Shown one piece after another: positions 1 to 64,000 of a DNA stretch of 64,000 nucleotides (its first letter is position 1; each line of letters starts with the position of its first letter). The translations under genes and the position numbers were made by a program. The stretch is from positions 24,597 to 88,596 of the forward strand of contig WQWM01000005.1 in assembly GCA_009785335.1 (NCBI GenBank), given 5' to 3'. The notes beneath the pieces are model-generated. The model made no database searches. It was not told the origin of the DNA and was given only the letters and a program-made list of their open reading frames with translations. This DNA comes from Oscillospiraceae bacterium (lineage in GTDB: Bacteria; Bacillota; Clostridia; Oscillospirales; Acutalibacteraceae).

Positions 1-215
1 TCACCGCGAAGCGGCTGGGTTTTTACATCAATCCCCACCTGCACGTCTGCGACGCGCTTTCCTCCCCCAATGACCCACCCCACAAATGCAAGCATTTGCG
101 GGGACCCCGGAGGGGGAAGCCTTGACAACACCTACACAACACATAAAAATCCACCGCGAAGCGGCATAGGTTTTTTTGGTTCTTTTTTTCCAAAAAAAGA
201 ACACGTGAAAAAGGA
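1..215. repeat. Fam-C repeat unit(s), truncated by window edge, ending in GTTC-T7-CC-A7-GAAC palindrome
   Basis: Same sequence as units at 2570-3045 and 4210-4460. Confidence 0.8.
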
Positions 216-221
216 GAGTGC

Positions 222-584
222 ATGTTCGAACAAGATTATGTGATGCGCATGATAGAAGGCATCGCCAAAATGCTGGGGCAGCTGGTGTTTCACAAACAGG
301 CGGACGCTGTGCAGCTGTTTGATCAACATGGCAATGTGACGGAAGAAGGCTTGCTGCTGCAGCGGCTGAAGGATATGCTGGCGTGCGGGCAGGTGAACGA
401 GGCAGAAAATCTGCTGTTTTCGTGGCTGGAAGAAAGCCGCGATCCCGGGATGTTGCCAGTGGCCATTGAGTTTTACCGCACACTGGCTGGCATGAATGAA
501 GCCGAGCTTGCGGCATGTGACTATACCCATGAGGAAATTGCCGAGGGGCTGCAGGCGGTGCAAAAAATGTTTGAAGAAGCGTAA
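222..584 (+). CDS. hypothetical soluble protein (120 aa)
   Basis: Track ORF; ATG shortly after AAAAGGAGAG SD; no family recognised by eye. Confidence 0.55.
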   Translation: MFEQDYVMRMIEGIAKMLGQLVFHKQADAVQLFDQHGNVTEEGLLLQRLKDMLACGQVNEAENLLFSWLEESRDPGMLPVAIEFYRTLAGMNEAELAACDYTHEEIAEGLQAVQKMFEEA

Positions 585-589
585 GTTGG

Positions 590-1135
590 AGGCGTGATAT
601 TTGCGTCGCTCCGCGAAGCGAGATGACGAGTTGCGGACGAGCACAGCTCGCCCCTACGCGTAATGCGGCCAAAGGCCGAACGAGCCCCCAAAAACATTCA
701 CCGCGAAGGGGTGATTTCGATGATGAGTGTGAGAAAAACGGGCGGCAGGTTGCCGCCCCTACACGTGCAACATCTACACATCCCGAAAAAATCCTCGCTT
801 CGCGAAATCCATCCCGGCACTGCGGTGCCACCCCTCCACACTCCACCCCAAAAATGCAAGCTTTTCCGGGGACCCCGGCGGAGGGGAATGCGGATTGCTT
901 TTTCAACTCACGTTAAACGCGCAGCTCAATCGCAGTGCCCAGAATAAAGCACAGCGAAGCGACTGGCTCCCCGCAGGGGTGGTTCTTTTTTTCATCAACC
1001 CCCACCTGCACGTCTGCGACGCGCTTTCCTCCCCCGGCGGGGGAGGCCTTGGCAACACTTACACATTCCTATAAAAATTCACCGCGAAGCGGCTAAAGTT
1101 TTTTGCGCAACTTTTTTTCAAAAAAGTTGCAAAAG
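590..1135. repeat. repeat mosaic (REP hairpin ~739-763, Fam-D ~940-985, Fam-C unit ~985-1130)
   Basis: Module-by-module identity with other intergenic regions. Confidence 0.8.
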
Positions 1136-1146
1136 GAGAACATACG

Positions 1147-2187
1147 ATGAGACGTAATAACTGGACGAAATATGCGCAGGTGCTGCTGGCGGCAATTAGT
1201 ATATTGCTGGTGGCATTGGCTGCAAACGCACACACCCTTGCGCAACAAGAGTGGATGCTGCAAATTGAAGGTATTCCGATTTCACGGCAGCTGTATAGCT
1301 ATTTTGTGGCACAGGCACTGGCTGAAGTTGAGCGCGACGCAAATGGCGTGCCGCTTGACATGGAAGAACTGCGCACTCGCGCTGCTGCACAGGCCATTGC
1401 TTTTGTGGCGCTGAATAGCGAAATGCATAACCAAGGTATCTCGCTTGAGCCATACATGCGCGCCATGATAGCACAACGCACGGCCTTGCTGTGGCGAACG
1501 TTTGGCAACTACTACACTCGTTTGGGCATTGACAAAGAAACCGTGGCACAGGTGCAAAACAGCATTGCTGCACAAGACCGCTTGTTCCGTGCGCTATATG
1601 ACACAAATGGGCTGCGCGAAGTGCCGGAAGAAAGTCTGGAGTCGTTTTTCTATGGCAATTTTGCAGCCATTGACGGACTGCGCTTGCCCTTGCGCGTGAT
1701 TGAAGATGACGGCAGCGAACGCGCCATGACTCAAACCGAACGCGGTATATTAGTAGACACCATGCGTGCCATGGCGGTGGAGGCTAACCGTGAAGGTGGT
1801 CCGCCGCTGTTTATTCTGGCGCAGGAAGAACTGTTCGCAACGACGATGGGCTATGCCATGCCCATTGGCATGGTGCTGCGCCGCGACTTGGATTTGACCA
1901 GCGCAGACTTTGATCGTGTGATGGTGCTTAACACCGAACAGGTGACCGTGCTTGAACTGGACAACGAAGTGATTGTGGCGCACGGCGTGGATATGCGCGC
2001 GAGCAAAGAAGAGTTCTACTATATGTATCGCGCCTATTGCCTGCGCACGATGATGCTGCCCGCTTTTGAAGCCGACCTGCAACTGCTGTTTGCGCAATTC
2101 ACTGCAGATGAGAATGTGGCGGCGATAGAATCGCTGCTGAATGGCTGGAATTTTAGTTTTGGGTTTAGGGGAGTGGCGGAAGAGTAG
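1147..2187 (+). CDS. hypothetical membrane-anchored protein (346 aa)
   Basis: Track ORF; SD AAAAGGAGAA; N-terminal hydrophobic anchor YAQVLLAAISILLVALAANA; no catalytic motif recognised. Confidence 0.55.
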   Translation: MRRNNWTKYAQVLLAAISILLVALAANAHTLAQQEWMLQIEGIPISRQLYSYFVAQALAEVERDANGVPLDMEELRTRAAAQAIAFVALNSEMHNQGISLEPYMRAMIAQRTALLWRTFGNYYTRLGIDKETVAQVQNSIAAQDRLFRALYDTNGLREVPEESLESFFYGNFAAIDGLRLPLRVIEDDGSERAMTQTERGILVDTMRAMAVEANREGGPPLFILAQEELFATTMGYAMPIGMVLRRDLDLTSADFDRVMVLNTEQVTVLELDNEVIVAHGVDMRASKEEFYYMYRAYCLRTMMLPAFEADLQLLFAQFTADENVAAIESLLNGWNFSFGFRGVAEE

Positions 2188-2189
2188 GA

Positions 2190-2570
2190 GATTGCTTCAA
2201 ACAGGTAGCGGGTTGATGCAAACAGGTGGAGAATCCCGGGCGGCTTGCAAGCCGCCCCTACATGCGAAATTGCGTCGCTCCGCGAGCCTTCCTCACCCTC
2301 CCCGAGGTCGGGAGCTCCTTCCAGGGGAAGGAGCCTGGGGGCTTGAGAGGATAGCGACAGCGGAATCAGTGGCGAGATGTAGGGGCGGATGTGAATCCGC
2401 CCGAGCAAAAATAATGGTTTAAGATGTTATCCCGGGCGGCTTGCAAGCCGCCCCTACATGCGAAATTGCGACGTGCGCTCCTCCCCAAAGGAGAGCGGAA
2501 CGAAATGGATGCTCACGGCGCGCCAAAGGCACGCCCTATAGGAATGCGGCCAAAGGCCGAACAAGTCCCC
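2190..2570. repeat. repeat mosaic: REP 2235-2262, Fam-B ~2275-2365, inverted REP doublet 2378-2458
   Basis: CCCGGGCGGCTTGCAAGCCGCCCCTACA occurs twice; TGTAGGGGCGGATGTGAATCCGCCCG in opposite orientation. Confidence 0.85.
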
Positions 2571-3045
2571 TAAAAAATACACCGCGGAGCGGCATGAGGT
2601 TTTTTTGGTTCTTTTTTGCATCAACCCCCACCTGCACGTCTGCGACGCGCTTTCCTCCCCCAATGACCCACCCCAAAAATGCAAGCATTTGCGGGGACCC
2701 CGGAGGGGAGGCCTTGGCAATACCTACTCAGTTCATAAAGATTCCCACGCGAAGCGGCTAGGTTTTTTTGGTTCTTTTTTTGCATCAACCCCCACCTGCC
2801 GCCTGCGACGGCTTTCCTCCCCCGGCGGGGGAGGCCTTGGCAACACCTACACAGTTCATAAAAATCCCCACGCGAAGCGGCTAGGTTTTTTTGGTTCTTT
2901 TTTTGCATCAACCCCCATCTGCCGCCTGCGACGGCTTTCCTCCCCCGGCGGGGGAGGCCTTGGCAACACCTACACAGTTCATAAAAATCCCCACGCGAAG
3001 CGGCTAGGTTTTTTTGGTTCTTTTTTTGCAAAAAAAGAACACAAG
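2570..3045. repeat. tandem array of four Fam-C units (~163 bp then ~122-123 bp period)
   Basis: GGTTTTTTTGGTTCTTTTTTTGCATCAACCCCCA.. restarts near 2598, 2761, 2884, 3006; units 2 and 3 differ at one base as read. Confidence 0.9.
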
Positions 3046-3061
3046 AGAAAAGGAGATCGAC

Positions 3062-3841: not shown

Positions 3842-4465
3842 CCACCTGCGGTGGGGCTCGGCCGCTTCGCTGTGTTCTATTATAGGAAGATAAGACTCAC
3901 GGGCGGCAGGTTGTGAGACCTACAGGCGGGACGGAAATCACGGGCGGCAGGTTGCCGCCCCTACACGCGAGGTCGCGTCGCTCCGCGAGCCTTCCTCACC
4001 CTCCCCGGGGTCGGGAGCTCCTTCCAGGGGAAGGAGCTTGGGGGCTTGAGAGGATAGCGACAGCAAGATTGCAACCCCCACCTGCACGCCTTACGGCATG
4101 CCATCTCCCCCAAGGCGGAGGCTTTGGCACTAGTGCTCCCCCCTGTCGCTACGCGACATCCCCCCTCACGGAGGGGGGCAAGGCGGCTCGCCGAAACATT
4201 CATAAATCGTAAATAATCCACCGCGAAGCGGCTAGGTTTTTTTGGTTCTTTTTTGCATCAACCCCCACCTGCACGTCTGCGACGCGCTTTCCTCCCCCAA
4301 AGGGGGAGGCCTTGGCAACACCTACACATTCCTACAAAAATCCTCGCTCCGCGAACACCACCCTCCACCGAGGGGAATTGAGATTGCTTTTTCAACTCTC
4401 ATATAATCATCCACCGCGAAGCGGCTAAAGTTTTTTGGTTCTTTTTTTCAAAAAAGAACAGAAAA
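3842..4465. repeat. repeat mosaic (Fam-D 3842-3890, REP 3941-3965, Fam-B, Fam-E, two Fam-C units)
   Basis: Module identity with other copies. Confidence 0.8.
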
Positions 4466-4478
4466 GGAGAAGAACAAC

Positions 4479-5708: not shown

Positions 5709-5745
5709 TTGGGCAGTGGCACTCGTTCGACCGTCGTAAAGCTCA

Positions 5746-6055
5746 CGGGCGGCTTGCAAGCCGCCCCTACATGTTGACGCAGCTTACAGCGAAATCATCG
5801 CTCCGCGAGCCTTCCTCAGTCCGACCCGAGGTCGGCCAGCTCCTTCCCAAGGAAGGAGCTAAGGACTTAAGAGGATAACGACAGCACAGCGTGCGGCGGG
5901 ATGTAGGGGCGGCTTGTAAGCCGCCCGAAAGTCTACACTGCCGCCCCTACATGTTGACGCAGCTTACAGCGAAATCATCGCTCCGCGAACCTTCCTCAGT
6001 CCGACCCGAGGTCGGCCAGCTCCTTCCCGAGGAAGGAGCCGAGGTTTAAGACAGC
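5746..6055. repeat. two direct ~105-bp REP-arm+Fam-B composites (5761-5870, 5941-6050) plus REPs 5746-5771, 5902-5927
   Basis: Copies differ at 2-3 positions as read; 180-bp period. Confidence 0.85.
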
Positions 6056-6088
6056 ACATTTTTATAAAAAAGAATCGAGGGTAACGCA

Positions 6089-8212: not shown

Positions 8213-8214
8213 GC

Positions 8215-9290: not shown

Positions 9291-9731
9291 ATGTATCAGA
9301 TCATTCCCTATGCCCCGCAATATCGCGATGACATGATTTTTTGCCTGCTGCTGGCCAAAGATGCGCTGGGCTACGTGCCGCATCTCAATGAAGACCTACT
9401 GAATGTGCAAGCGAACTATTTCGCCCGCGGCGATGCATTTTGGCTGGCCGTGGATAACAACGATCGCGTGATTGGCATGGTGGGTACGCACACGGTTTCG
9501 GCTGACGAGCTATGGCTGAAGCGACTGTATGTCAAACCCAACTGCAAGCGACAGGGCGTCGCTTCGGCTTTGTTGCGCATGGCGGAGGACTTTGCGCGCG
9601 CCAAAGGCATTGCGTGCGTGCATACGCGGTTTAATGATGATTATCATGAAGCAGCAGGGTTTTATCCTGCGATGGGCTTTGTGGCGACCGAGCGCAGCGA
9701 TGGATGTCGGCATTTGGTGAAGCGCGTGTAG
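9291..9731 (+). CDS. GNAT family N-acetyltransferase
   Basis: 146 aa; acetyl-CoA motif A-like KRQGVASALLRMAEDFARAKG. Confidence 0.8.
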   Translation: MYQIIPYAPQYRDDMIFCLLLAKDALGYVPHLNEDLLNVQANYFARGDAFWLAVDNNDRVIGMVGTHTVSADELWLKRLYVKPNCKRQGVASALLRMAEDFARAKGIACVHTRFNDDYHEAAGFYPAMGFVATERSDGCRHLVKRV

Positions 9732-9732
9732 A

Positions 9733-10262
9733 AGCGGCAATTTTGCTGCCCGAGATCTTCATATTACCATGTTTTTATAGCTCGGGTGGCATGAATGCCA
9801 CCCCTACAGGTGCTGAATAGCCGAAAGCAACAGCAAAAACCTCGCTCCGCGAGCCTTCCTCACCCCTCGCGACTCGGGGAGCTCCTTCCAGGGGAAGGAG
9901 CTGAGGCTTAAGAGGATAACAACAGCGGAACTTTGTGTAGGGGCGGCAATTTTGCCGCCCGGGATTCTTCAATCTTACCATATGTTTTATAGCTCGGGTG
10001 GCATGAAGGCCACCCCTACAGGCACTGAATAGCCGAAAGCGACAGAAAAAACCTCGCTCCGCGAGCCTTCCTCACCCCTCGCGGCTCGGGGAGCTCCTTC
10101 CAGGGGAAGGAGCTGAGGCTTAAGAGGATAACAACAGCGGAACTTTGTGTAGGGGCGGCAATTTTGCTGCCCGGGATTCTTCAATCTTACCATATTTTTA
10201 TAGCTCGGGTGGCATGAATGCCGCCCCTACAGGTGCTGAATAGCCAAAAACAACAGCGTTTT
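9733..10262. repeat. ~212-bp composite (REP doublet + Fam-B) in ~2.5 tandem copies
   Basis: Track ORFs 9775..9981 and 9987..10193 are near-identical 68-mers offset by 212 nt. Confidence 0.9.
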
Positions 10263-17508: not shown

Positions 17509-19200
17509 ATGTATCAAGTATTATACCGCAAATGGCGGTCGCCAACGTTTGGCGATGTGGTTGGACAAGACCACGTGACCACTACGCTGCGCCGCGCACT
17601 GCAAGCGCAGCGGCTTGCGCATGCATATCTATTCACCGGGCCGCGGGGCACAGGCAAAACCTCGTGTGCGCGAATTTTAGCAAAAGCAGTGAACTGCACT
17701 AACCCGCAAGAAGGGGAACCCTGCAACACCTGCGAGCTTTGCATGGGCATTGACAACAACAGTATTCTTGATGTGATTGAAATTGACGCCGCCAGCAACA
17801 ACGGCGTGGATAACATCCGCGACCTGCGCGACGAAACGAACTTTACGCCCACACACGGCAAATATCGCGTGTATATCATCGACGAGGTGCACATGCTTTC
17901 GGCCGGGGCGTTCAACGCGCTGCTGAAAACCCTAGAAGAACCGCCGTCGTATGTGATATTTATTCTGGCGACCACCGAGGTGCACAAGCTGCCGGCCACG
18001 GTGCTGTCGCGCTGCCAACGCTTTGATTTTCACCGCATTTCTGCCGAAGACATTGCTAAACGCCTGCTGCGCGTTACCGAACAAGAGGGTCTTGCGCTGG
18101 AAGAAGGCGCGGCGATGCTGCTTGCCCGCGTGGCAGATGGTGCCATGCGTGATGCTTACTCGCTGCTGGACCGTTGCCGCACGGAAGGCGAGAATATCAC
18201 CACGGCGAGCGTGGCCCGCGCCATCGGCATGGCAGACCGACGATATTTATTCGAACTGTGCGATGCGCTGCTGACTTGTGATATCGGTGCGTGCTTGCAG
18301 TTGATTCATCAGCTATACCACGATGCATGTGAGATGGAGCGACTTTGTGAAGAACTGCTGGTGCACATGCGGAATCTGCTGGTGCTGCGCAGCGTGAAAA
18401 CCCCGCGTGAGTTTTTGCTGTGTACAGATGAAGATCTTGCGTTGTATCAGGCGCAGGCCAAGCTGTGCACCGTGCCGCAGCTGCTGAAGTATATGGAAGT
18501 TCTTGAGCAGACGCAACAAAATCTGCGCCGCAGCACCGACCGCCGCATGGAAATGGAGCTGGGATTGATTCGGTTGTGTACGATGGGGCAGACCCCCACC
18601 GTCGCACCTACGGTGCGCCAGCTCCCCCAAGGGGGAGCCCTTGGCAAAGATGCAACTCCCGCAAAACCACAGCCTAGCTCCGAGCAAGTTCCTGCGTCAT
18701 ACGAAACCCCAGCTGCCGCAAAAGAGGAAACCCCGGGCGGATTTGCATCCGCCCCTACAGAAAGTGCGCAGCCGAAGCCGCCAGAACAACCCTCGCTCCG
18801 CGAACCTTCCTCAGTCCGCCCCGAGGGCGGCCAGCTCCTTCCCGAGGAAGGAGCCAAGGCTTTAGCGGCAAGCGACAGCACACCTTCCCCTGACCACGCA
18901 ACAGGTGATCGATTATTCGCCGAGTGGGGCATGGTGCTGGCAAAGCTGGGTGAGACGAATCCTGGGTTGGCGGGGATTTTGCAAGGCTCGAGTGCGGTGA
19001 CGCGCGGTGAACATATACTGATTAAAAGCACCAACCCTGCGTTTGAGGCTTTCATTCGCCAACCGAACCAAGCAGGCAGCCTGAAACAGGCTATTTATGA
19101 CGTGAGTGACCGCAAGGTGAAGCTGGGTATCTTCAAGGGTGATGCTGCGCCGCCGAAAGACCCCCTTGCGGAATTGGCTGCGCGGGCGGAGAAGTTGTAG
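17509..19200 (+). CDS. dnaX: DNA polymerase III subunit gamma/tau
   Basis: Start at MYQVLYRKWRSPTFGDVVGQ; Walker A GPRGTGKTS, Walker B IIDEVHML, SRCQRF; 5' part of track ORF 17323.. is repeat-encoded; own promoter. Confidence 0.9.
   Translation: MYQVLYRKWRSPTFGDVVGQDHVTTTLRRALQAQRLAHAYLFTGPRGTGKTSCARILAKAVNCTNPQEGEPCNTCELCMGIDNNSILDVIEIDAASNNGVDNIRDLRDETNFTPTHGKYRVYIIDEVHMLSAGAFNALLKTLEEPPSYVIFILATTEVHKLPATVLSRCQRFDFHRISAEDIAKRLLRVTEQEGLALEEGAAMLLARVADGAMRDAYSLLDRCRTEGENITTASVARAIGMADRRYLFELCDALLTCDIGACLQLIHQLYHDACEMERLCEELLVHMRNLLVLRSVKTPREFLLCTDEDLALYQAQAKLCTVPQLLKYMEVLEQTQQNLRRSTDRRMEMELGLIRLCTMGQTPTVAPTVRQLPQGGALGKDATPAKPQPSSEQVPASYETPAAAKEETPGGFASAPTESAQPKPPEQPSLREPSSVRPEGGQLLPEEGAKALAASDSTPSPDHATGDRLFAEWGMVLAKLGETNPGLAGILQGSSAVTRGEHILIKSTNPAFEAFIRQPNQAGSLKQAIYDVSDRKVKLGIFKGDAAPPKDPLAELAARAEKL
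18618..18879. repeat. three repeat modules inside dnaX coding sequence (Fam-F 18618-18647, REP 18732-18759, Fam-B 18793-18879)
   Basis: Verified codon by codon against the track translation (..LPQGGALGK.., ..PGGFASAPT.., ..SLREPSSVRPEGGQLLPEEGAKALAASDS..). Confidence 0.85.
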
Positions 19201-35454: not shown

Positions 35455-35542
35455 AAGATTCGGGGGACTATTCTACCCCTGCGGTGCGTATTACGCACCG
35501 CCTTTAGACATATACGGTAGGGCGCACGTGATACGTGCGCAT
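35455..35542. repeat. Fam-G hairpins downstream of RAYT-2
   Basis: GGTGCGTATTACGCACC and GCGCACGTGATACGTGCGC. Confidence 0.7.
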
Positions 35543-35944
35543 TCACATATAAAACTTGTCTTCTTGCCAGCGCGTTGGATTTTCTTGTACATAACGTTTT
35601 GCAGCATGAAAATAATTGGCAGTTGTGATTGCGCTGATGTGTGCGCCATCTTGCCAAAGCGAAAACCCGATGGTTTTTGTTACGGCAGATTTCAGTTGCA
35701 GTATAACGCGGCTGGGTTGAGGATTTTTTTGAAAGTTCATGAAATGCAGCAAGATATGCACGTGGTTTGGCATAATGATATAACAATCCAAGGCGATGGA
35801 AGGATATGCGGTTTCGATTCTCTCTACGCTGCGCCGCACAACTTTGCCGTAGTCAGAAAGCAACATTTTATTATGTTGGATTTTGCCGAGCATCGGTTGT
35901 TTATCCTTCACGCAGAATGTTATAAAATATACTCCGTTGTGCAT
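35543..35944 (-). CDS. RAYT-type Y1 transposase, copy 2 (N-terminally short, diverged)
   Basis: 133 aa; HUH PNHVHILL; ..KRYVQENPTRWQEDKFYM; lacks about 20 N-terminal residues present in copies 1/3; flanked by GYGCGTATTACGCRC hairpins. Confidence 0.65.
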   Translation of the reverse strand: MHNGVYFITFCVKDKQPMLGKIQHNKMLLSDYGKVVRRSVERIETAYPSIALDCYIIMPNHVHILLHFMNFQKNPQPSRVILQLKSAVTKTIGFSLWQDGAHISAITTANYFHAAKRYVQENPTRWQEDKFYM

Positions 35945-35949
35945 ACAAT

Positions 35950-36035
35950 TTTACCTCTGTCGTGGGCGCGTATTACGCGCGCTTTTCGGTGTATGTCGTA
36001 AAGGCGGGACGTATTACGTCCCGTGTTTCCCATAG
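35950..36035. repeat. Fam-G hairpins upstream of RAYT-2
   Basis: GGCGCGTATTACGCGCGC and GGGACGTATTACGTCCC. Confidence 0.7.
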
Positions 36036-43427: not shown

Positions 43428-44276
43428 TTAGTGTGACACTTCCACGGTATAATAACGCGCCACACAGCTGGGCATGTTGAGGAAGGAATAAAATGCCAAG
43501 GCGTATTCGTTGGGGTTTTCTGAGTTCGCCAAAAATGCGTTGAGGTTGTCCATGCTGTCGAAGGTGCACAGGTCCAGCCAGGTTTCGCCGTCGCGCAGCT
43601 GCTGCCACGAGATGAAGCCCGGTTGCTTGGAAATGTGTTCGTCGTGCAGAGTTTTGGCAGCCTGCAAAAATTCGGCCACGTCAGCGGATTTTTTGAGCTT
43701 GAAGGTGCAGTGGAAGATGGCGTTCATGTGGGGGATTCCTTTCGGGGGGGTTAATTTGCGTAGGGATGGTGGAACATAGTAGCGGTCATTCGCCCAGGTT
43801 TGTGGATTGTTTTCGATGTAACGAGAAATATGCCAATATTCTGCTTTGCTGCGGATAATGCGGTCATGGAAAGAGCGTTGCCACATGGAAAAACCAATTT
43901 GTTTGGTGACGTATGACTTGAAATTCCGCACGAAATATTGTAGGGGCGACCGTCCTCGGTCGCCCGCTTGGGGCAATAACCTAATTATCGCGTGGATGTG
44001 GTTAGGCATTATGATATATTTGTCGATGCGAACATATGGATGATGCTCGTGGTAGTACAATAATGCATTGTTTGCGATTTCACCGATTTTGGATAGCTGA
44101 ACATGTGCTTCAATAGTGGCGTCTTCATGCGGGCGACCGAGGACGGTCGCCCCTACAATAATTTTACCCAGCATTTCGTGCATGTCCTTCACACAAAACG
44201 TGACGAAATAACACCCCGCCTGTGCATAGTCAAAATGAGTAAGGCGATTTTGCTGGCGGGTGGTTAGTTCCTTCAT
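43428..44276 (-). CDS. RAYT-type Y1 transposase, copy 3, read through in frame into a ~99-aa ABM-like alpha+beta domain
   Basis: ATG overlaps stop of upstream GDPD gene (ATGA); HUH PNHIHAII; WQRSFHDRIIR..SRYIENNPQTW; no stop where copies 1/2 end; downstream MNAIFHCTFKL.. domain has its own SD-like GAAAGGA. Confidence 0.7.
   Translation of the reverse strand: MKELTTRQQNRLTHFDYAQAGCYFVTFCVKDMHEMLGKIIVGATVLGRPHEDATIEAHVQLSKIGEIANNALLYYHEHHPYVRIDKYIIMPNHIHAIIRLLPQAGDRGRSPLQYFVRNFKSYVTKQIGFSMWQRSFHDRIIRSKAEYWHISRYIENNPQTWANDRYYVPPSLRKLTPPKGIPHMNAIFHCTFKLKKSADVAEFLQAAKTLHDEHISKQPGFISWQQLRDGETWLDLCTFDSMDNLNAFLANSENPNEYALAFYSFLNMPSCVARYYTVEVSH
43939..43966. repeat. Fam-H REP (TGTAGGGGCGACC-N6-GGTCGCCCG) inside RAYT-3 ORF
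   Basis: Encodes ..PQAGDRGRSPLQ.. in frame. Confidence 0.85.
44130..44157. repeat. Fam-H REP, inverted copy, inside RAYT-3 ORF
   Basis: Encodes ..VGATVLGRP.. in frame. Confidence 0.85.
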
Positions 44277-46309: not shown

Positions 46310-46520
46310 CGCTTTCTTTTGGTAGGTTGTAGGGGCGACCTGTGGTCGCCCGCAGATTTTGATGATAGCACGGCGCTGCAAAGCAACGCCCTACAGGAAA
46401 TGCGCCAAAGGCGCTGACGAGCAAACATAGCTACATAAAGTTTCTTTGTCGTTATCCTCTTAAGCCTCAGTCCCCCTCTTTAGAGGGGGATGTCCCGCAG
46501 GACAGGGGGTGCGGTGATTA
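46310..46520. repeat. repeat mosaic incl. Fam-H REP 46329-46352 and Fam-E
   Basis: TGTAGGGGCGACCTGTGGTCGCCCG; CCCCCTCTTTAGAGGGGG. Confidence 0.75.
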
Positions 46521-52524: not shown

Positions 52525-54543
52525 ATGAAAACAATTGCATTGATAGGCAACCCCAACAGCGGCAAAACCACGCTGTTCAACGCGCTCACCGGTCAGCGGC
52601 AGTTTGTGGGCAACTGGCCGGGCGTGACCGTGCAGGTGAAACAGGGCAAACTGCGCGGGCAAAACGATATGCTGCTGCTAGACTTGCCCGGGATTTATTC
52701 ACTAACCCCGCTTGCGCCCGAAGAAACCGTGGCCTGTGATGCCTTGGTGAATCACCCGCCGGATGTTATTCTTAACATTGTGGATGGCACGAACTTGCAG
52801 CGCAATCTCTACCTGACCATGCAGTTGCTGGGGTTGGGTGTGCCTGTGATTGTAGCCGTGAATTGCGCGGATGTGTTGCGCAAACGCGGGGATATATTTT
52901 CGGCGGCGGTGCTTGCGCGCGAACTGGGCTGCCCTGTGGTGGAGATCAGCGCGCTGCGTGGTAGCGGACTGGATAAACTTGCAGGGGAATTGCGGGCGGA
53001 TTTGCATCTGCCCCTACAGGTGTTCAGACATGAAAGCATCGCCGCGACTTATGCCCAAATTGAACGCATCACCGCCCGGTGCATGCGTCAAAGCAGCAAG
53101 CCAAACATGACCGAGCGCATGGATAACATTGTGCTGAATCGGTGGCTTGCGTTGCCGCTGTTTGTGCTGGTGATGACGGGTGTGTACTATCTTGCGGCGG
53201 CGGGGCCGGGTGCGTGGCTGGGCGGCTGGGTAGAAGGTGCAATCGCCGCGCTGGGGCAGACGATGCCCAACACATGGCTCGGCTCGCTGGTGCAAGAGGG
53301 CGTGCTCGGCGGGGCGGGCATGCTGCTGGGTTTTGTGCCGCAGTTGATGATGGTATTTCTGTGTTTGAGTGTGCTGGAAGCCAGTGGATATCTATCTCGT
53401 GTGGCGTTTTTGCTGGATGCAGCACTGCGCAAATTCGGGCTTTCGGGCAAGTGCTTCATGCCCATGCTTCTCGCCACGGGTTGCAGCGTGCCCGCGATTT
53501 TAGCCACACGCGCCATTGATTGTCCACGCCAGCGTCGTGCGGTGGCTGCCACATGCAGCTTTCTGCCTTGCAGCGCAAAGTTGCCCATCATTGCGCTGAT
53601 GGCAAATGGCGTGTTCGGCGGTGCGTGGTGGCTTGCGCCGTTGATGTACTTCATCGGCGCGGCGGCGATGCTGTTTAGCGCGAGATGCGTTACTTTTTTT
53701 GAAAAAAAAGTAACCAAAAAAACGTTAGCCGCTTCGCGGGGGAATCTTTATGAACTGAGTAGGTATTGCCAAGGCCTCCCCTCCGGGGTCCCCGCAAATG
53801 CTTGCATTTGTGGGGTGGGTCATTGGGGGAGGAAAGCGCGTCGCAGACGTGCAGGTGGGGGTTGCAATCGTTTAGCCGCTTCGCGAGGGATATTTAATGA
53901 GTGTGCAAAAAGCAACTCTTATTCCTCTTCGTGGAGGGGGAGCGCCATCGCCTCGCCCGCGAGCCATAATAGAACACCGCGAAGCGAGGAGCCCCACCGC
54001 AGGTGGCCCCTCTGTGAGGAGGGGTGTCGCGCAGTGGCAGGGGGGAGTCATGACTTCATCTTAGAAATGCCGCAATATCGCTTGCCGAGCGGGCGGGATA
54101 TTGCGCGCAGTGCGTGGCGGCGCACGATGGAGTTTGTGAAAAAAGCCGGCAGCGTCATTGTGCTGTCCGGCGTGTTTGTGTGGCTGCTGGGTGGCGTGTT
54201 GCAGCCTGTGGGCGGCGCAATCGCTTGGCTGTTTGTGCCGCTTGGCTTTGGTTTTTGGCAAGCGGCCGTGGCGACATTAACAGCATTCGTCGCAAAAGAA
54301 AATGCCGTGGCCACGTTGGGCGTGTTGGGTGCGGCGGCGATGTTCAGCCCTGCCAGTGCGATGTCGTTTTTGCTATTTAATCTGCTGAGCATGCCTTGTG
54401 TGGCAGCGGTGGCGGCACTGCGGCGTGAGCTAGGTAGCACAAAGCGGACGTTGTTTGCTGTGGGCTGGCAGTTTGCGGTGGCGTATGTGGCGGCAGGTTG
54501 TGTTTATTGGGCGCTTGGAAATATGCACGTTTTTCCGCATTGA
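52525..54543 (+). CDS. feoB: ferrous iron transporter FeoB (carrying ~123 repeat-derived codons in frame)
   Basis: Start MKTIALIGNPNSGKTTLFNALTG (G1), DLPG (G3), NCAD (G4); polytopic C-domain; ..EMPQYRLP gate motif after the insertion. Confidence 0.85.
   Translation: MKTIALIGNPNSGKTTLFNALTGQRQFVGNWPGVTVQVKQGKLRGQNDMLLLDLPGIYSLTPLAPEETVACDALVNHPPDVILNIVDGTNLQRNLYLTMQLLGLGVPVIVAVNCADVLRKRGDIFSAAVLARELGCPVVEISALRGSGLDKLAGELRADLHLPLQVFRHESIAATYAQIERITARCMRQSSKPNMTERMDNIVLNRWLALPLFVLVMTGVYYLAAAGPGAWLGGWVEGAIAALGQTMPNTWLGSLVQEGVLGGAGMLLGFVPQLMMVFLCLSVLEASGYLSRVAFLLDAALRKFGLSGKCFMPMLLATGCSVPAILATRAIDCPRQRRAVAATCSFLPCSAKLPIIALMANGVFGGAWWLAPLMYFIGAAAMLFSARCVTFFEKKVTKKTLAASRGNLYELSRYCQGLPSGVPANACICGVGHWGRKARRRRAGGGCNRLAASRGIFNECAKSNSYSSSWRGSAIASPASHNRTPRSEEPHRRWPLCEEGCRAVAGGSHDFILEMPQYRLPSGRDIARSAWRRTMEFVKKAGSVIVLSGVFVWLLGGVLQPVGGAIAWLFVPLGFGFWQAAVATLTAFVAKENAVATLGVLGAAAMFSPASAMSFLLFNLLSMPCVAAVAALRRELGSTKRTLFAVGWQFAVAYVAAGCVYWALGNMHVFPH
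52992..53018. repeat. REP hairpin (one mismatch) in frame inside feoB
   Basis: GCGGGCGGATTTGCATCTGCCCCTACA encodes ..LRADLHLPLQ.. Confidence 0.8.
53685..54050. repeat. ~370-bp block of Fam-C/Fam-D/Fam-E repeat modules in frame inside feoB
   Basis: GTTAC-T7-G-A8-GTAAC palindrome, AGCCGCTTCGCGGGG, GGGGTCCCCGCAAATGCTTGCATTTGTGGGG, CCCACCGCAGGTGG etc., all intergenic repeat sequences elsewhere. Confidence 0.85.
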
Positions 54544-60704: not shown

Positions 60705-60783
60705 ACAACTGTTGCGATGCCCCCTCGTTTGAGGTGGGCATTTTTGGCTTGGGATGTTGCGCTAGACAAAGGGAGGGCTTTGT

Positions 60784-61770: not shown

Positions 61771-61804
61771 TCGGATGGATATGCGACGATAGAAAGACTT
61801 TGTT

Positions 61805-62494
61805 ATGAAAAAACTAGTGGCTGTGCTGCTGGTGGTTGTGCTGCTGGCGGGCATGGTTGCAGTGCCTGCGTTTGCGCAAGAAGCGGATGCACAATACGGC
61901 TGGCCCAGTGATGTTGAACTGCATATATCGATGAACACGGGTGGTTTTGTTTCCATCCGTTGGCCACGTTTTACAGAAACGACGATTGACGGCGTTGGTC
62001 AACAAAACGGCCTGTTTCGGCAGTTACAACAAGGACTCGCGGCAGACATTTATCCCCAGCAGCCGTTGTTGTGGGAAGTGATTGCAGATGGGCAAATTCT
62101 AACGGCTTGCACAGAGATAGGTTCAAACGAACAGTTGCCCTGGCGCGTTAGGCATGGTCCACAGGCGCACCGCGATTTTTTAGACATTCAGCGGTTCACT
62201 GCGCGTGGGGAACGCCCTTGGAGTGGCGAATTAGAAGTCCGCTTGACGGTGACTGCGCGTTGCACCAACAGCGGTGAGATCGTATCGCGCACGGGTAGTA
62301 TTACGACGGAGTTTCGAGCCAACCCCGGACCACCCACGCAATGGGATTTGTTCGTTTATGGTTTTCGGCGTTTTTTTTTGGGAACGATCTGGTCTTTATT
62401 ACGTGGCGCAGGTTTTTTGCTAATCGGGGTTTATTATTTTTTGTTTGTTCTGCCGATTTTGATTTTGCGTTGGTTATTTCATCACATCACGTAG
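61805..62494 (+). CDS. secreted protein with C-terminal TM (229 aa)
   Basis: Signal peptide MKKLVAVLLVVVLLAGMVAVPAFA; C-terminal GFLLIGVYYFLFVLPILILRW. Confidence 0.55.
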   Translation: MKKLVAVLLVVVLLAGMVAVPAFAQEADAQYGWPSDVELHISMNTGGFVSIRWPRFTETTIDGVGQQNGLFRQLQQGLAADIYPQQPLLWEVIADGQILTACTEIGSNEQLPWRVRHGPQAHRDFLDIQRFTARGERPWSGELEVRLTVTARCTNSGEIVSRTGSITTEFRANPGPPTQWDLFVYGFRRFFLGTIWSLLRGAGFLLIGVYYFLFVLPILILRWLFHHIT

Positions 62495-62537
62495 AAAGAA
62501 TTTGTGACTATAATATAAATGATAAAGGAGAATTCTC

Positions 62538-62780
62538 ATGAAAAAATGTCTTAGCATTTTGTTGGTGTTTGCGCTGCTGTTTGGCGTGGGTGCGGTGAGT
62601 GCATCGGCGGTGCAGCCTGCTCAATTGCAGTGCGCCAACGCAGAACCCTACAACACAACCATTGACCGCCCCGAAGACCCGGACACGTTTAACTGGTTGC
62701 GCGTGATTCTCATCACTGTGTTGGCTGTGGTCGTTGTGGCTGTTGCGGGGTTTGGCCTTTGGTATTTCCTGGCTGACTAA
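62538..62780 (+). CDS. small secreted, C-terminally anchored protein (80 aa)
   Basis: MKKCLSILLVFALLFGVGAVSASA; FNWLRVILITVLAVVVVAVAGFGLWYF; terminator follows. Confidence 0.6.
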   Translation: MKKCLSILLVFALLFGVGAVSASAVQPAQLQCANAEPYNTTIDRPEDPDTFNWLRVILITVLAVVVVAVAGFGLWYFLAD

Positions 62781-62794
62781 GAAATAAACAGCTT

Positions 62795-62826
62795 CCCCCT
62801 CTCGCTTGAGAGGGGATTTTTTTATT
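62795..62826 (+). terminator. intrinsic terminator after 62538 ORF
   Basis: CCCCTCTC-GCTT-GAGAGGGG plus T7. Confidence 0.75.
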
Positions 62827-62931
62827 TCCGCAACTGTTAGTTGCGCAATTGCTACCCAAAGATGCTAGATTCGCTCGCTTGATTTTGCTATACTGTTAAC
62901 AATCTATAAAGAAAGCAAAAGGAGCGTTTTC

Positions 62932-64000
62932 ATGAAAAAATTTCTTAGCATCTTGTTGGTTTGTGCATTGCTGCTTGGCGGCAGCACAATTGCAACTGCG
63001 GCAGTGAGCCCCGAAGCTCATGACCACATCCTCAGTGAGCTGGCACGTGCGCGCATTCCGAATGCCGCTGTTGCTGTTATTCAGGGCGGCGAATTGTCGT
63101 ACATCCTCCATGGCGATACACAGCACGACACGCTGTTTCAAATCGGCTCGATTGCGAAGAGCATGACGGGCTTTGGTGTGTTGCTGCTGGAGGACATGGG
63201 ACTGTTGACGGTGTATGATTCGGTCAGTCAGCACTTGCCATGGTTTAACGTACGCTACAATGGTGCACCGGTAGATTTGACCATCTACAACCTTTTGCAC
63301 CACACAAGCGGGTTCACCAGCGACGAACGACGTTTTCCGACGGTTGTAGTGGAGACAAAAGATGCGATGATCGCGCAGTTGGATGGCATTGAGCTTGCAT
63401 TTTATCCTTCATCAGATTTCACCTACGGCAACGTGAACTATATTCTGCTGGGCTTTATCATTGAATCGGTGAGCGGGCAAACTTATGACCAGTTCATGAC
63501 GCAAGAGGTGTTTCATCCGCTGGGCTTGTATAACACGTTCACCAACGCGGTTAACGCACATGCCACAGGCAGAGTGGCGGGCGGCCATCGGCTTGGGTTT
63601 TTGCGCGCAAGGCCTTTCGACGCGGCTTTTCCAGCCCTAACCATGCCAACAGGCGGCATATATGCTAGCATCGCTGACATGGCACGCTGGACAGGCATTC
63701 ACTTTGGCACCATTGCGGTGTCGGAACAGTTCCAGCGGGTCGTGCAACGTTCGCACATCCATCATCATGTGACAGATGCGCCATTTGAAGGGCATGAAGA
63801 TCCTTGGGGTGCTATCATTCATTATGGTGCAGGCTGGTTTTCTTATGAGTCTGGAAGCCCATCTGCAAACATCGGGCATGCTGGTAGCACATTTGCGTAT
63901 TCCTCTGACTTGATGATGTTCCCAGACCGCGACATGGCTGTGGTGGTTCTTGCCAATTTGAGAACAAATCTGCCTTGGGCACCGATGGTTGCAGATGCCT
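62932..64000 (+). CDS. serine hydrolase, beta-lactamase/PBP-like (3' end outside window)
   Basis: Not in ORF track (no stop in window); ATG after AAAAGGAG SD; MKKFLSILLVCALLLGG signal peptide; SxxK (SIAK), YGN. Confidence 0.75.
   Translation, partial: MKKFLSILLVCALLLGGSTIATAAVSPEAHDHILSELARARIPNAAVAVIQGGELSYILHGDTQHDTLFQIGSIAKSMTGFGVLLLEDMGLLTVYDSVSQHLPWFNVRYNGAPVDLTIYNLLHHTSGFTSDERRFPTVVVETKDAMIAQLDGIELAFYPSSDFTYGNVNYILLGFIIESVSGQTYDQFMTQEVFHPLGLYNTFTNAVNAHATGRVAGGHRLGFLRARPFDAAFPALTMPTGGIYASIADMARWTGIHFGTIAVSEQFQRVVQRSHIHHHVTDAPFEGHEDPWGAIIHYGAGWFSYESGSPSANIGHAGSTFAYSSDLMMFPDRDMAVVVLANLRTNLPWAPMVADA

What the first reader, a model, noticed from the sequence alone, without database searches (positions are those of the whole stretch)
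1..64000. Intergenic DNA is saturated by at least eight families of short GC-rich palindromic modules assembled as mosaics
Nearly every intergenic gap longer than ~100 bp is built from the same modules in different orders and orientations. Examples: 590-1135, 2190-3045, 3842-4465, 5746-6055, 8215-8480, 8799-9265, 9733-10262, 11321-11870, 17040-17400, 20745-21190, 42095-42480, 45110-45300, 46310-46520, 48260-48460, 50180-50500. Families as read: A, REP CGGGCGG-N7-9-CCGCCCCTACA. B, TCGCTCCGCGAGCCTTCCTCA..AGCTCCTTCC-N3-4-GGAAGGAGC. C, a ~120-bp unit. D, CACCTGCGGTGGGGC..CGCTTCGCTGTG. E, CCCCCTCTTTAGAGGGGG or CCCCCCTGTCGC types. F, ..GGAGCCCTTGGCAACAGCCGAAAGGTTGAGTT. G, GYGCGTATTACGCRC. H, GGGCGACC-N6-GGTCGCCCCTACA. 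The repeats create most of the long spurious ORFs in the track. I am not aware of this density and modularity having been described for Gram-positive-type genomes.
Basis: seen in the sequence. Interest (0 to 1): 0.65.

Follow-up and report, generated by a model that had tools for sequence, protein, structure and literature searches.

The report
REP/RAYT repeat mosaics in Oscillospiraceae
The spaces between genes in this uncultured gut Clostridia-type bacterium are packed with small hairpin-forming mobile DNA repeats (REP elements and several companion modules). Two genes for the type of enzyme thought to copy REPs sit in the same window, so this is a known kind of system in a lineage, and at a density, not described before.

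Summary
42.7% of the window's intergenic DNA (6,977 of 16,327 bp) is intra-window repeat, against about 13 bp in shuffles, and 30 of 37 gaps of at least 100 bp carry repeats.

Family A is a classical GTAG-tagged REP (5'-GTAG-GGGCGG..CCGCCC-G). It has about 38 copies, many as inverted head-to-head doublets that fold like REPINs.
- RAYT1 (43428-44276, minus strand) carries the two "family H" REPs in frame inside its own ORF.
- RAYT2 (35543-35944, minus strand) is flanked by the "family G" palindromes.

Families B, E, F and the core of C are variants of one multi-hairpin design. B has strong compensatory covariation, and its orientation follows GC skew (the replication strand), not gene direction.

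The same modules occur on 66 stretches of JGI metagenome contigs, at least some from termite gut. Syntenic relatives (78-90% nucleotide identity) show presence/absence differences, for example 863 bp here against 24 bp there.

Modules also sit in frame inside dnaX and feoB.

Verdict: a BIME-like REP/RAYT system plus lineage-specific hairpin elements in an Oscillospiraceae genome, that is, a new variant of a known kind. The sub-claim that the repeats create most of the long spurious ORFs is wrong.

The parts
2237..3034 (+). Mosaic A+ B+ A- A+ followed by T/C units (about 123-165 bp apart), between the stop of gene 1147-2187 and the RBS of gene 3062-3841
   Evidence: Module map. The orthologous gap in relative L186 is 24 bp against 863 bp here.
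9726..10257 (+). BIME-like tandem array with a 212-bp period: [REP A- / ~30-bp spacer / REP A+ / linker / B+], about 2.5 units
   Evidence: Sequence and map. The REP doublet folds as a long hairpin, z = -5.1. The orthologous gap in L186 is 46 bp against 587 bp here.
739..763 (+). Example REP A singleton, CGGGCGGCAGGTTGCCGCCCCTACA (reverse complement: GTAG-GGGCGGCAACCTGCCGCCC-G). There are 38 A copies in the window.
   Evidence: The identical sequence sits inside the RAYT ORFs of L122 and L123.
2378..2458 (.). Example head-to-head REP A doublet (REPIN-like, GTAG ends outward, ~29-bp AT-rich spacer). Others are at 8290, 9072, 11428, 20930, 33681, 42147, 45163, 47099 and 50261.
   Evidence: Fold -39.3 kcal/mol, z = -4.9. 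Dimer census across window and relatives: HH 26, TT 13, HT 3.
9842..9925 (+). Example module B (~85-92 nt): hairpins P1 (TCGC-TCC-GCGA), P3 (variable 5-7 bp stem, CGA loop) and P4 (GCTCCTTCC-N3-GGAAGGAGC), then a CTTAAGAGGATAACGACAGCG tail.
   Evidence: nhmmer. Covariation: 94% of cells paired and 13 of 21 pairs changed on both sides. Orientation follows GC skew.
2606..2760 (+). Example module C (~120-155 bp), with B-like nested hairpins and a TTGGCA/TTGACA-N17-18-AAAAAT promoter-like site. It ends in module T.
   Evidence: nhmmer finds 11 copies. Promoter-like scan: 16 sites against 6.8 +/- 2.8 expected in 1-12000, six of them in C units.
4412..4455 (+). Example module T: CACCGCGAAGCGGC hairpin, a T run, then an A/T palindrome GTTCTTTTTTT-C-AAAAAAGAAC. 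It sits 17-31 nt upstream of start codons (genes at 222, 1147, 3062, 4479, 39084), or 8-34 nt from the end of a gene that reads towards its A/T-palindrome end.
   Evidence: The palindrome arms co-vary (GTTC/GAAC, GTTGC/GCAAC, GTGG/CCAC, GTAAC/GTTAC).
3842..3882 (+). Example module D, CCACCTGCGGTGGGGCTCGGCCGCTTCGCTGTGTTCTATTA. It often starts directly after a stop codon (3842, 8799, 40184 minus strand). 11 copies in the window.
   Evidence: 40 further copies in 25 metagenome loci.
43428..44276 (-). RAYT1: a REP-associated HUH-Y1 transposase homologue (HUH = MPNHIHAII, Tyr motif = YIENNP), read through into an ABM-like C-terminal part
   Evidence: NCBIfam NF047646 E = 2.5e-14, 53 bits against a cut-off of 80. 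PDB 4er8 TnpA-REP by sequence, E = 9e-4. AF2 model pLDDT 84, with 4er8_A the top fold hit. 491 homologues found.
43939..44157 (.). Two family-H REPs (GTAGGGGCGACCGTCCTCGGTCGCCCG and its reverse complement) in frame inside RAYT1, GTAG ends outward, bracketing the HUH motif. They encode IVGATVLGRP and QAGDRGRSPLQ.
   Evidence: Conserved at DNA level in L003 and L004. The two peptides co-vary across homologues.
35543..35944 (-). RAYT2: a second, shorter RAYT-like ORF (MPNHVHILL, YVQENP; N-terminus short and the WQ..FHD motif altered, so possibly decaying)
   Evidence: An orthologue is present in L184.
35481..36028 (.). REPtron-like flanks of RAYT2: four family-G palindromes (GCGGTGCGTATTACGCACCGC, GGGCGCACGTGATACGTGCGC with a GTAG foot, GGGCGCGTATTACGCGCGC, GCGGGACGTATTACGTCCCG)
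   Evidence: Three further G copies lie at 17124-17215.
18734..18878 (+). REP A plus module B in frame inside dnaX (17509-19200), in the linker after domain III
   Evidence: Module B is also present inside dnaX of relatives L144 and L183.
53695..54006 (-). Modules T, C and D in frame inside feoB (52525-54543), adding about 97 codons between the Gate and FeoB_C regions. A REP A also lies at 52994-53018 in the same gene.
   Evidence: Relative L178 has 53 bp where the window has 344 bp.
46328..46352 (-). The only extragenic family-H REP in the window

Best explanation
The window is an origin-proximal chromosome segment of an uncultured Oscillospiraceae (Clostridia), probably from termite gut. Its intergenic DNA has been colonised by several families of small, non-autonomous, hairpin-forming elements.

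(1) REPs. Families A, H and G, and my extra family J, are GTAG-tagged REPs. They occur as singletons, as head-to-head or tail-to-tail doublets (REPIN-like), and as BIME-like tandem arrays. They belong to REP/RAYT systems. Two RAYT (HUH-Y1 transposase) genes lie in the window. RAYT2 is flanked by G palindromes in a REPtron-like arrangement. RAYT1 belongs to a clade that carries its cognate REP pair inside its own ORF. Relatives have RAYTs whose internal or flanking REP is exactly the window's A type, so the mobiliser of A is most likely a third RAYT elsewhere in this genome (inferred).

(2) Modules B, C and T. B (with E and F as variants), C and T are separate multi-hairpin elements. Their stems are kept by Watson-Crick compensatory change with almost no G-T pairs. 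Their orientation flips with GC skew at the putative origin. This fits insertion as single-stranded DNA on one replication strand, as shown for IS200/IS605 elements moved by Y1 transposases (mechanism inferred, mobiliser unknown).

(3) Mosaics. They arise because new copies land next to or between older ones, and composite units then duplicate in tandem. Insertions that stay in frame survive even inside genes (dnaX, feoB, gidA).

Shown: the repeats, the hairpins, the covariation, the RAYT homology and fold, the strand bias, and the presence/absence differences between relatives.

Inferred: that RAYTs actually move these elements, and which RAYT moves which family.
For: Repeat excess over shuffles.

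REP anatomy:
- GTAG foot, 9-bp stem with a co-varying inner stem, 4-nt loop.
- Doublets fold with z about -5.
- HH:TT:HT = 26:13:3, as in known GTAG families (PMC3733652).

RAYT identity:
- RAYT1 by NCBIfam, PDB sequence and predicted fold.
- RAYT2 with flanking palindromes.

REP inside the RAYT ORF:
- The intragenic REP pair is conserved at DNA level in genes of 37-43% GC.
- Its two peptides co-vary: VGAT with GDRGRSPL 61 times, VGTT with DDRGRSSL 22 times, no full cross-combination and only scattered partial hybrids.
- RAYTs carrying the window's A-type REP: L122 and L123, and L169, where the same REP subtype has 4 further identical extragenic copies in 14.5 kb.

Module B:
- 94.2% of cells paired against 43-56% in slid controls; 97 cells changed on both sides against 3 changed on one side.
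- Orientation relative to neighbouring genes 37 same: 49 opposite.
- Orientation relative to GC skew 71:26, or 75:28 plus 18:2 with local skew.
- Per locus, 23 against 2 by my hand count from the table.
- Across the gidA-parAB skew switch, 6 of 6 copies are on the minus strand to the left and 7 of 7 on the plus strand to the right.

Mobility: orthologous gaps of 863 vs 24, 587 vs 46, 882 vs 66 and 344 vs 53 bp.

No Rfam family matches.
Against: - No transposition event is observed. No filled/empty pair close enough to define element ends or target sites was found.
- RAYT1 scores below the NCBIfam equivalog cut-off, and Pfam Y1_Tnp is only marginal.
- RAYT1's own REP type (H) has a single extragenic copy in the window. 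The abundant A type has no cognate RAYT within the window.
- REP singletons and module D show no strand bias.
- B mostly lacks an adjacent REP in relatives (131 of 148 copies), so its link to RAYTs is only by analogy.
- GC skew is an indirect proxy for replication direction.
- No IS200/IS605 TnpA was seen.
- The compensatory changes in B could equally reflect an RNA function.
Confidence: 0.65

Rival explanations
1. The modules, especially B, C, T and D, are primarily functional RNA elements kept by selection and spread by duplication. Candidates are 3'-UTR stabilisers or terminators, 5'-leader structures, mobile promoters or small RNAs. On this view they are not transposon-like DNA.
For: - Strong compensatory covariation in B.
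- T sits 17-31 nt upstream of start codons or just past stop codons.
- D often starts right after a stop codon.
- C carries sigma-70-like -35/-10 matches, and promoter-like and terminator-like sites are about two-fold enriched in 1-12000.
- E. coli REPs are known to stabilise upstream mRNA (established knowledge).
Against: - B is as often antisense as sense to neighbouring genes (37:49), yet it tracks GC skew.
- Almost no G-U pairs among 1,102 cells, which is unusual for RNA helices.
- Copies are tolerated in frame inside dnaX, feoB and gidA.
- Orthologous gaps in close relatives lack the modules altogether.
- No Rfam match.
- A secondary, co-opted RNA role for some copies is not excluded.
Confidence: 0.15
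2. The non-REP modules are classical MITEs derived from DDE-type insertion sequences and moved as double-stranded DNA.
For: They are small, non-coding, of variable copy number and polymorphic between relatives. Inverted B/B pairs exist at 29382/29463 and 41554/41592.
Against: - No terminal inverted repeats spanning an element and no evident target-site duplications in the aligned copies, though this was not tested rigorously.
- The strand-specific orientation relative to GC skew is not expected for cut-and-paste double-stranded MITEs.
- No DDE transposase is seen in the window or its flanks.
Confidence: 0.1
3. B, C and T are oriented chromosome-architecture signals (KOPS- or Chi-like polar sequences) selected for their orientation towards the terminus.
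For: Orientation follows GC skew and flips at the putative origin.
Against: - Known polar signals are 8-mers, not 90-150-nt structured modules.
- The modules are absent from orthologous sites in close relatives.
- About 25% of copies are in the 'wrong' orientation.
Confidence: 0.05
4. The pattern is an artefact: unrelated GC-rich terminator hairpins that look alike, or metagenome misassembly joining repeat-rich fragments.
For: This is a short-read k141 assembly, and repeats are a classic cause of chimeric joins. Tandem array copy numbers are uncertain.
Against: - Similarity extends over 40-160 nt, including loops and unpaired linkers.
- Shuffles give about 13 bp of repeat against 6,977 bp observed.
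- Gene order is syntenic with independent JGI assemblies over 211-13639, 17431-23668, 23226-39975 and 37039-54272.
- The same modules occur in those independent assemblies.
Confidence: 0.03

Closest known systems
GTAG-tagged REPs / REPINs with RAYT (TnpA-REP) transposases (E. coli, Pseudomonas, Stenotrophomonas; Nunvar 2010 PMC2817692, Bertels & Rainey 2011 PMC3116915, Di Nocera 2013 PMC3733652)
   Same: - A 25-nt imperfect palindrome with a GTAG foot.
- High extragenic copy number.
- Head-to-head doublets that fold into long hairpins; tandem (HT) dimers are rare.
- An HUH-Y1 RAYT gene associated with its own REP type, and several REP types per genome.
- Occasional in-frame intragenic copies, notably in replication genes.
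   Different: - The host is a Firmicute (Oscillospiraceae); the 2013 survey lists no Firmicutes.
- The RAYT1 clade has its REP pair inside the ORF rather than flanking it.
- Local density is far higher: about 0.6 REP per kb, and 14% of the window is repeat.
- Extra non-REP modules are interleaved.
Bacterial interspersed mosaic elements (BIMEs) of enterobacteria
   Same: REPs in alternating orientation are separated by conserved non-REP linker motifs, repeated in tandem and placed between genes. The 212-bp array at 9726-10257 has this form.
   Different: The 'linker' B is an 85-92-nt three-hairpin element. In relatives it occurs on its own, without REPs, so it is an independent repeat rather than a BIME motif. 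Binding of IHF, gyrase or Pol I was not tested.
IS200/IS605-derived PATEs and the strand-specific transposition of IS608/ISDra2 (Y1 transposases; background in PMC6006769)
   Same: Hairpin-rich non-autonomous elements, with no obvious TIRs or target-site duplications, whose orientation is tied to the replication strand. HUH-Y1 enzymes are encoded in the genome.
   Different: No IS200/IS605 TnpA or TnpB was found nearby. The left and right ends and the target tetranucleotide of B, C and T are undefined. The link to a specific enzyme is inferred only.
Rickettsia palindromic elements (RPEs) and the intragenic REPs of Opitutus and Thioalkalivibrio (PMC3733652)
   Same: Palindromic repeats inserted in frame in housekeeping genes (here dnaX, feoB and, in a relative, gidA), apparently in linkers or loops.
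   Different: No sequence relationship. Here composite inserts of up to about 97 codons occur.
Modular intergenic repeats of Gram-positives: pneumococcal BOX/RUP/SPRITE and Bacillus cereus bcr1-bcr18
   Same: Several coexisting families of short structured intergenic repeats in Firmicutes; BOX is modular (boxA-B-C).
   Different: Those are not GTAG REPs and have no RAYT association. Their density is much lower than in this window.

Membership tests
GTAG-type REP (Di Nocera 2013) | 20-40 bp stem-loop with an unpaired GTAG (GTRG) tetranucleotide at one end | tested here: met
   33 exact CCGCCCCTACA tails, 32 of them intergenic. 9-bp stems with 3-4-nt loops.
GTAG-type REP (Di Nocera 2013) | High copy number, mainly extragenic | tested here: met
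   38 A copies in 64 kb. More in the contig flanks and in relatives. The whole-genome count could not be tested.
GTAG-type REP (Di Nocera 2013) | Dimers mostly head-to-head or tail-to-tail; tandem dimers rare | tested here: met
   HH 26, TT 13, HT 3.
REPIN (Bertels & Rainey 2011) | Two inverted REPs with a short spacer that fold as one long hairpin | tested here: met
   Doublets with 29-31-bp spacers; fold z = -4.9 and -5.1.
REPIN (Bertels & Rainey 2011) | A single-copy cognate RAYT flanked by the same REPIN in the same genome | tested here: inconclusive
   For family A no cognate RAYT lies in the window. Relatives have one (L169, L122, L123). The whole genome is not available.
RAYT / TnpA-REP | HUH motif and catalytic Tyr motif on an IS200-like fold | tested here: met
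   MPNHIHAII and YIENNP in RAYT1. AF2 model pLDDT 84, with top fold hit 4er8_A followed by IS200/IS605 TnpAs. RAYT2 has MPNHVHILL and YVQENP.
RAYT / TnpA-REP | Reaches the curated family score (NCBIfam NF047646 cut-off 80 bits; Pfam PF01797 cut-off 23 bits) | tested here: not met
   53.4 bits with E = 2.5e-14. PF01797 gives 15.2 bits, E = 0.024. A distant subfamily; some homologues do carry precomputed PF01797 hits.
RAYT / TnpA-REP | Gene flanked by its REPs (REPtron) | tested here: met
   Met for RAYT2, with four G palindromes directly flanking. For RAYT1 the REP pair is inside the ORF instead; the nearest flanking REP doublets are about 1 kb away.
BIME | REPs in alternating orientation separated by conserved linker motifs, often in tandem | tested here: met
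   9726-10257 has a 212-bp period of A- / spacer / A+ / linker / B+.
BIME | Binding of IHF, DNA gyrase or Pol I | not testable with these tools
   Needs biochemistry.
IS200/IS605-type non-autonomous element (PATE) | Orientation tied to the replication strand | tested here: met
   B 75:28 and 18:2, T 17:3, C 10:3 relative to local GC skew. Orientation flips at the skew switch in L135/L186.
IS200/IS605-type non-autonomous element (PATE) | Defined left and right subterminal hairpins with a conserved target or cleavage tetranucleotide, and a cognate TnpA | tested here: inconclusive
   No filled/empty pair was found to define the ends. No IS200/IS605 TnpA in the window.
Intrinsic terminators | GC-rich hairpin directly followed by a U tract, downstream of genes and in the sense orientation | tested here: not met
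   Most REP A and B copies lack a T tract, and B is antisense as often as sense. T has a weak hairpin plus a T run, so some copies may terminate.
Known RNA families (Rfam 15) | Match to a curated covariance model | tested here: not met
   No hit at gathering score. Only three chance-level hits at E up to 1.

The most novel reading that the evidence does not exclude
Two things may be new.

(a) A widespread Firmicute RAYT clade keeps an inverted pair of its own cognate REP in frame inside the transposase ORF, bracketing the HUH motif. The two copies evolve in concert (VGAT with GDRGRSPL, VGTT with DDRGRSSL) and differ between orthologues of sister species. The gene would then be both the enzyme and the 'master copy' or autoregulatory target of its REP family, and REPIN doublets could be internal-deletion derivatives of it.

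(b) Modules B, C and T would be a new class of multi-hairpin, single-strand-mobilised elements whose orientation marks the replication strand.

Together these elements inflate the non-coding fraction to about a quarter of the DNA (25% of the window, 22% of the relatives' loci) in a gut Clostridia lineage.
Probability: 0.4. Interest if true: 0.75.

Novelty: new variant of a known kind. Interest (0 to 1): 0.6.

Why it matters
- REP/RAYT systems are the main example of long-lived, vertically inherited intragenomic replicators, and have been studied almost only in Proteobacteria.
- A dense, multi-family system in Oscillospiraceae extends them to Firmicutes. The syntenic relatives show insertions and losses directly.
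- It offers a natural experiment on how far a bacterial genome tolerates non-coding mobile DNA: 25% intergenic overall, 36% near the origin, with in-frame inserts in dnaX, feoB and gidA.
- REPs embedded inside RAYT genes suggest a testable route by which enzyme and target co-evolve.
- Practically, such repeats fragment metagenome assemblies and generate false gene calls in this lineage.

Tried and rejected
- Rfam at gathering and at E up to 1: nothing.
- ARAGORN's 'tRNA-Stop' at 11538-11625 is a repeat hairpin artefact.
- Pfam did not recognise RAYT1 at the default threshold; NCBIfam, PDB and fold search did.
It returned matches in many phyla (Acidobacteriota, Anaerolineae, Oscillospiraceae and others), so it gave no per-genome census and did not find the same species. 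It did show that this REP type is widespread, and it gave one related MAG, L015.
- I first thought B was co-oriented with transcription, since the window alone suggests it. 151 copies in relatives rejected this (37:49).
- I thought REP A plus B formed one composite unit. Rejected: 131 of 148 B copies in relatives have no REP upstream.
- REP singleton orientation against skew: no bias in relatives (21:20).
- The search for near-identical filled/empty sites, to define element ends and target sites, found none.
- Two exact-protein look-ups failed because my start codons differed from the called ones.
- The CRISPR reading was rejected: the arrays have no unique spacers and there are no cas genes.

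Full report
**1. What the window is**

The window is part of a 138-kb metagenome contig, ENA ERZ27257300:k141_2398878. GC is about 53%, and GC skew is positive throughout.

The genes are ordinary housekeeping genes of a Gram-positive-type bacterium: argG, a GH18 enzyme, rpmB, an M24 peptidase, dnaX-ybaB-recR, dnaN, ftsEX, an M23 peptidase, feoB and others. ParA, ParB and SerS lie just upstream.

My gene calls leave only about 74.5% of the window coding. That is low for a bacterium.

Yes.
- Self-BLAST gives 627 non-self HSPs covering 9,010 bp.
- 6,977 of the 16,327 intergenic bp (42.7%) are repeat, against 4.3% of coding DNA.
- Twenty dinucleotide-preserving shuffles of the intergenic segments give 12.7 +/- 6.6 bp.
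- 30 of 37 gaps of at least 100 bp contain repeats.
- In the first 22 kb, 36% of the DNA is intergenic and 60% of that is repeat.

The module map shows the same units in different orders. Examples:
- 2237-3034: A+ B+ A- A+ T C T C T C T
- 9783-10231: A+ B+ A- A+ B+ A- A+
- 11325-11870: T- A- A+ B+ D-

**3. The families**

*Family A.* It reads CGGGCGG-xx-loop-xx-CCGCCC-CTACA, and its reverse complement is 5'-GTAG-GGGCGG...CCGCCC-G. This is the anatomy of a GTAG-tagged REP: a 9-bp stem whose inner 2-3 pairs co-vary (CAAAATTG, CTTGCAAG, ATTCACAT), a 4-nt loop and an unpaired GTAG foot.
- There are 38 copies.
- Many form head-to-head doublets with 29-31-bp AT-rich spacers. These fold as one long hairpin, z = -4.9 and -5.1, which is the REPIN geometry.
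- Across the window and its relatives the dimer census is HH 26, TT 13, HT 3. This is the pattern described for GTAG families (PMC3733652).

*Family B* (23 copies) is an 85-92-nt unit with three hairpins, P1, P3 and P4.
- On 55 distinct copies from the window and relatives, 94.2% of cells pair, against 43-56% when the partners are slid.
- 13 of 21 pairs show changes on both sides.
- There are 97 double-sided changes against only 3 one-sided (G-U type) changes.
- F, and my extra family K, merge with B on iterated nhmmer.

*Family C* (11 copies) has the same nested-hairpin design and ends in a unit I call T.

*Unit T* (13 copies) is a CACCGCGAAGCGGC hairpin, a T run, then an A/T palindrome whose arms co-vary.

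*Family D* (11 copies) is CCACCTGCGGTGG...GTCGCTTCGCTGTG. It often starts directly after a stop codon.

*Family G* comprises 7 palindromes.

*Family H* has 3 copies.

No module matches an Rfam family.

**4.

*RAYT1.* ORF 43428-44276 (minus strand) has the HUH motif MPNHIHAII and the tyrosine motif YIENNP.
- It matches NCBIfam 'REP-associated tyrosine transposase' at E = 2.5e-14, although below the equivalog cut-off.
- Its best PDB sequence match is E. coli TnpA-REP, 4er8.
- An AlphaFold model (pLDDT 84) has 4er8_A as its top fold match, followed by IS200/IS605 transposases.
- Homologues (491 at E up to 1e-5) are annotated as Oscillospiraceae or Bacillota transposases, or as 'REP element-mobilizing transposase RayT'.

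*The two H REPs.* These lie inside this ORF, in frame and inverted, with GTAG ends outward, bracketing the HUH motif. They encode IVGATVLGRP and QAGDRGRSPLQ, which fall in predicted loops.

*This holds for the whole clade.*
- The peptides are near-invariant in an alignment of 18 members.
- The DNA hairpins are conserved in genes of only 37-43% GC (L003, L004).
- Among 120 homologues, VGAT pairs with GDRGRSPL 61 times and VGTT with DDRGRSSL 22 times. No full cross-combination occurs, only scattered partial hybrids. This is what is expected if both peptides are read from reverse-complement copies of one REP.
- The positional orthologue in sister species L178 carries a different internal REP.
- Other members (P0090 and P0111, loci L122 and L123) carry CGGGCGGCAGGTTGCCGCCCCTAC inside the ORF, identical to window REP A at 739 and 3941.
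- In L169, a relative that also carries B, a RAYT has an A-type REP 26 nt upstream of its start and one inside the ORF. The same REP subtype occurs 4 more times extragenically within 14.5 kb. That subtype is also at window 50197.

*RAYT2.* A second RAYT-like ORF (35543-35944, minus strand) is directly flanked by four G palindromes, one with a GTAG foot. This is a REPtron-like arrangement.

I found no paper describing REPs inside RAYT ORFs. The library is incomplete, so this is not proof of novelty.

**5. Beyond the window**

REP A continues in the contig flanks.

It returned matches in many phyla, including several Oscillospiraceae and Ruminococcaceae and Gemmiger formicilis. REPs with this stem are therefore widespread. 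One hit, MAG Lab288P3bin30 (Oscillospiraceae, termite gut; PMC7024585), shares dnaX and feoB at 73-76% nucleotide identity.

A scan of JGI metagenomes with a 22-base B pattern found 66 stretches. Some are on contigs of Ga0123353, the data set that MAG comes from. These 493 kb hold 168 B, 40 D, 25 T and 14 C hits and 129 REP-like hairpins, and are 78% coding.

Seven loci are syntenic with the window at 78-90% identity. Orthologous gaps differ sharply, window against relative:
- 863 vs 24 bp
- 587 vs 46 bp
- 882 vs 66 bp
- 635 vs 115 bp
- the reverse case, 391 vs 1,217 bp

In the 863-bp case the relative goes from stop codon to RBS in about 24 nt.

**6. Orientation**

In the window B is almost always on the plus strand, which could reflect either transcription or replication. 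In the relatives:
- B is sense to neighbouring tandem genes 37 times and antisense 49 times.
- It agrees with GC skew 71:26.
- With local skew the counts are 75:28 in relatives and 18:2 in the window.
- Per locus it is 23 against 2, by my hand count from the table.
- T (17:3) and C (10:3) behave the same way. D (10:12) and REP singletons (21:20) do not.

Locus L135 (gidA-gidB-noc-abi-parA-parB-serS), by its gene content, lies just upstream of L186 on one contig.
- Its skew switches from -0.2 to +0.13 near parA.
- All six B copies to the left of the switch are on the minus strand. A +/- inverted pair sits just to its right.
- All seven B copies in L186 are on the plus strand.

B's own top strand is C-rich, so its composition works against this correlation rather than creating it.

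Strand-specific orientation is the signature of IS200/IS605 elements, which Y1 transposases move as single-stranded DNA at the replication fork (background in PMC6006769). Together with the near absence of G-T pairs in the stems, I take this as evidence that B, C and T are selected or inserted as DNA hairpins. This step is inference, and the mobilising enzyme is unknown.

**7. Copies inside genes**

- REP A plus B lie in frame in the dnaX linker (18734-18878). B is also inside dnaX of L144 and L183, so that insertion is old.
- T, C and D add about 97 codons to feoB (53695-54006). Relative L178 has 53 bp there against 344 bp.
- A REP A at 52994 in feoB has a counterpart in the feoB region of MAG L015.
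- Two B copies lie within gidA of L135.

This resembles the intragenic REPs and Rickettsia RPEs reviewed in PMC3733652.

**8. Possible side effects on expression**

C units carry TTGGCA/TTGACA-N17-18-AAAAAT. Promoter-like sites (16 against 6.8 +/- 2.8) and terminator-like sites (31 against 16 +/- 4) are enriched in 1-12000.

T sits 17-31 nt upstream of five start codons in the window.

These are consensus matches only. A co-opted regulatory role is possible but not shown.

**9. Verdict**

The window holds a REP/RAYT system with BIME-like mosaics, plus lineage-specific multi-hairpin elements, in an Oscillospiraceae genome.

The principle (REPs, REPINs, BIMEs, RAYTs, intragenic REPs) is known. 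Four things appear new:
- the host lineage;
- the density;
- the RAYT clade with REPs embedded in its ORF;
- the strand-oriented companion modules.

The claim about spurious ORFs is wrong.

The main limits are the lack of a whole genome, the lack of any direct evidence of mobility or of enzyme-substrate pairing, and a short-read assembly in tandem arrays.

Noticed in passing
window 43428-44276 (-); also L003:10001-10483, L004:10001-10450, L122:881-1378, L123:277-783: A whole clade of RAYT-like transposases carries an inverted pair of its own REP in frame inside the ORF, around the HUH motif. The two encoded peptides co-vary across 120 homologues (VGAT with GDRGRSPL, VGTT with DDRGRSSL). P0084 even has four tandem VGTTAPGRP units.
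   Followed up: yes
window 43428-43750 (-): The C-terminal ~100 aa of the RAYT1 ORF is a weak ABM-like domain (Pfam ABM, E = 0.004). In relatives L178 and L152 it matches as a separate tblastn piece (67-73% identity) from the RAYT part (42-47%). It may therefore be a separate gene elsewhere and a read-through fusion here. In L152 the RAYT part is reduced to about 64 aa.
   Followed up: partly
window 23672-25314: A C5 cytosine DNA methylase (23684-24721) and an overlapping ORF (24582-25319) occupy 1,643 bp where relative L184 has 54 bp. They lie in a lower-GC stretch (44-49% over 22-30 kb). This is probably an inserted restriction-modification module.
   Followed up: partly
L135:1-13507 and L186 (contig Ga0131853_10001129): GC skew switches sign between the noc-like gene and parA, next to an Abi-like gene. 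gidA, gidB and noc then read towards the putative origin. Two B copies lie inside gidA.
   Followed up: partly
window 13721-14164: A 36-bp periodic tandem repeat inside ORF 13581-14318 (no Pfam hit), unrelated to the hairpin modules.
   Followed up: no
window 14232-14465 vs 15362-15580; 60778-60830 vs 61798-61851; 62508-62586 vs 62904-62980: Short paralogous stretches shared by neighbouring small genes, including similar N-terminal starts of adjacent ORFs. These are local gene duplications, not the palindromic modules.
   Followed up: no
window 11538-11625: ARAGORN calls a 'tRNA-Stop (tta)' here. It coincides with E/K-type hairpins in a mosaic and is almost certainly a false positive.
   Followed up: partly
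window 25988-26205 vs 27573-27790: Two TraX-family genes (25361-26188 and 26970-27773) are paralogues at about 74% nucleotide identity, flanking an Rce1-like gene.
   Followed up: no
L062 (Winslowiella arboricola NZ_JAODIM010000039.1) 3725-4063: A tandem array of at least nine REPs (CGGGCGGCGAAAACGCCGCCCCTACA, ~44-bp period) in an enterobacterium matches the same REP A pattern. This REP stem type is shared across distant phyla.
   Followed up: no
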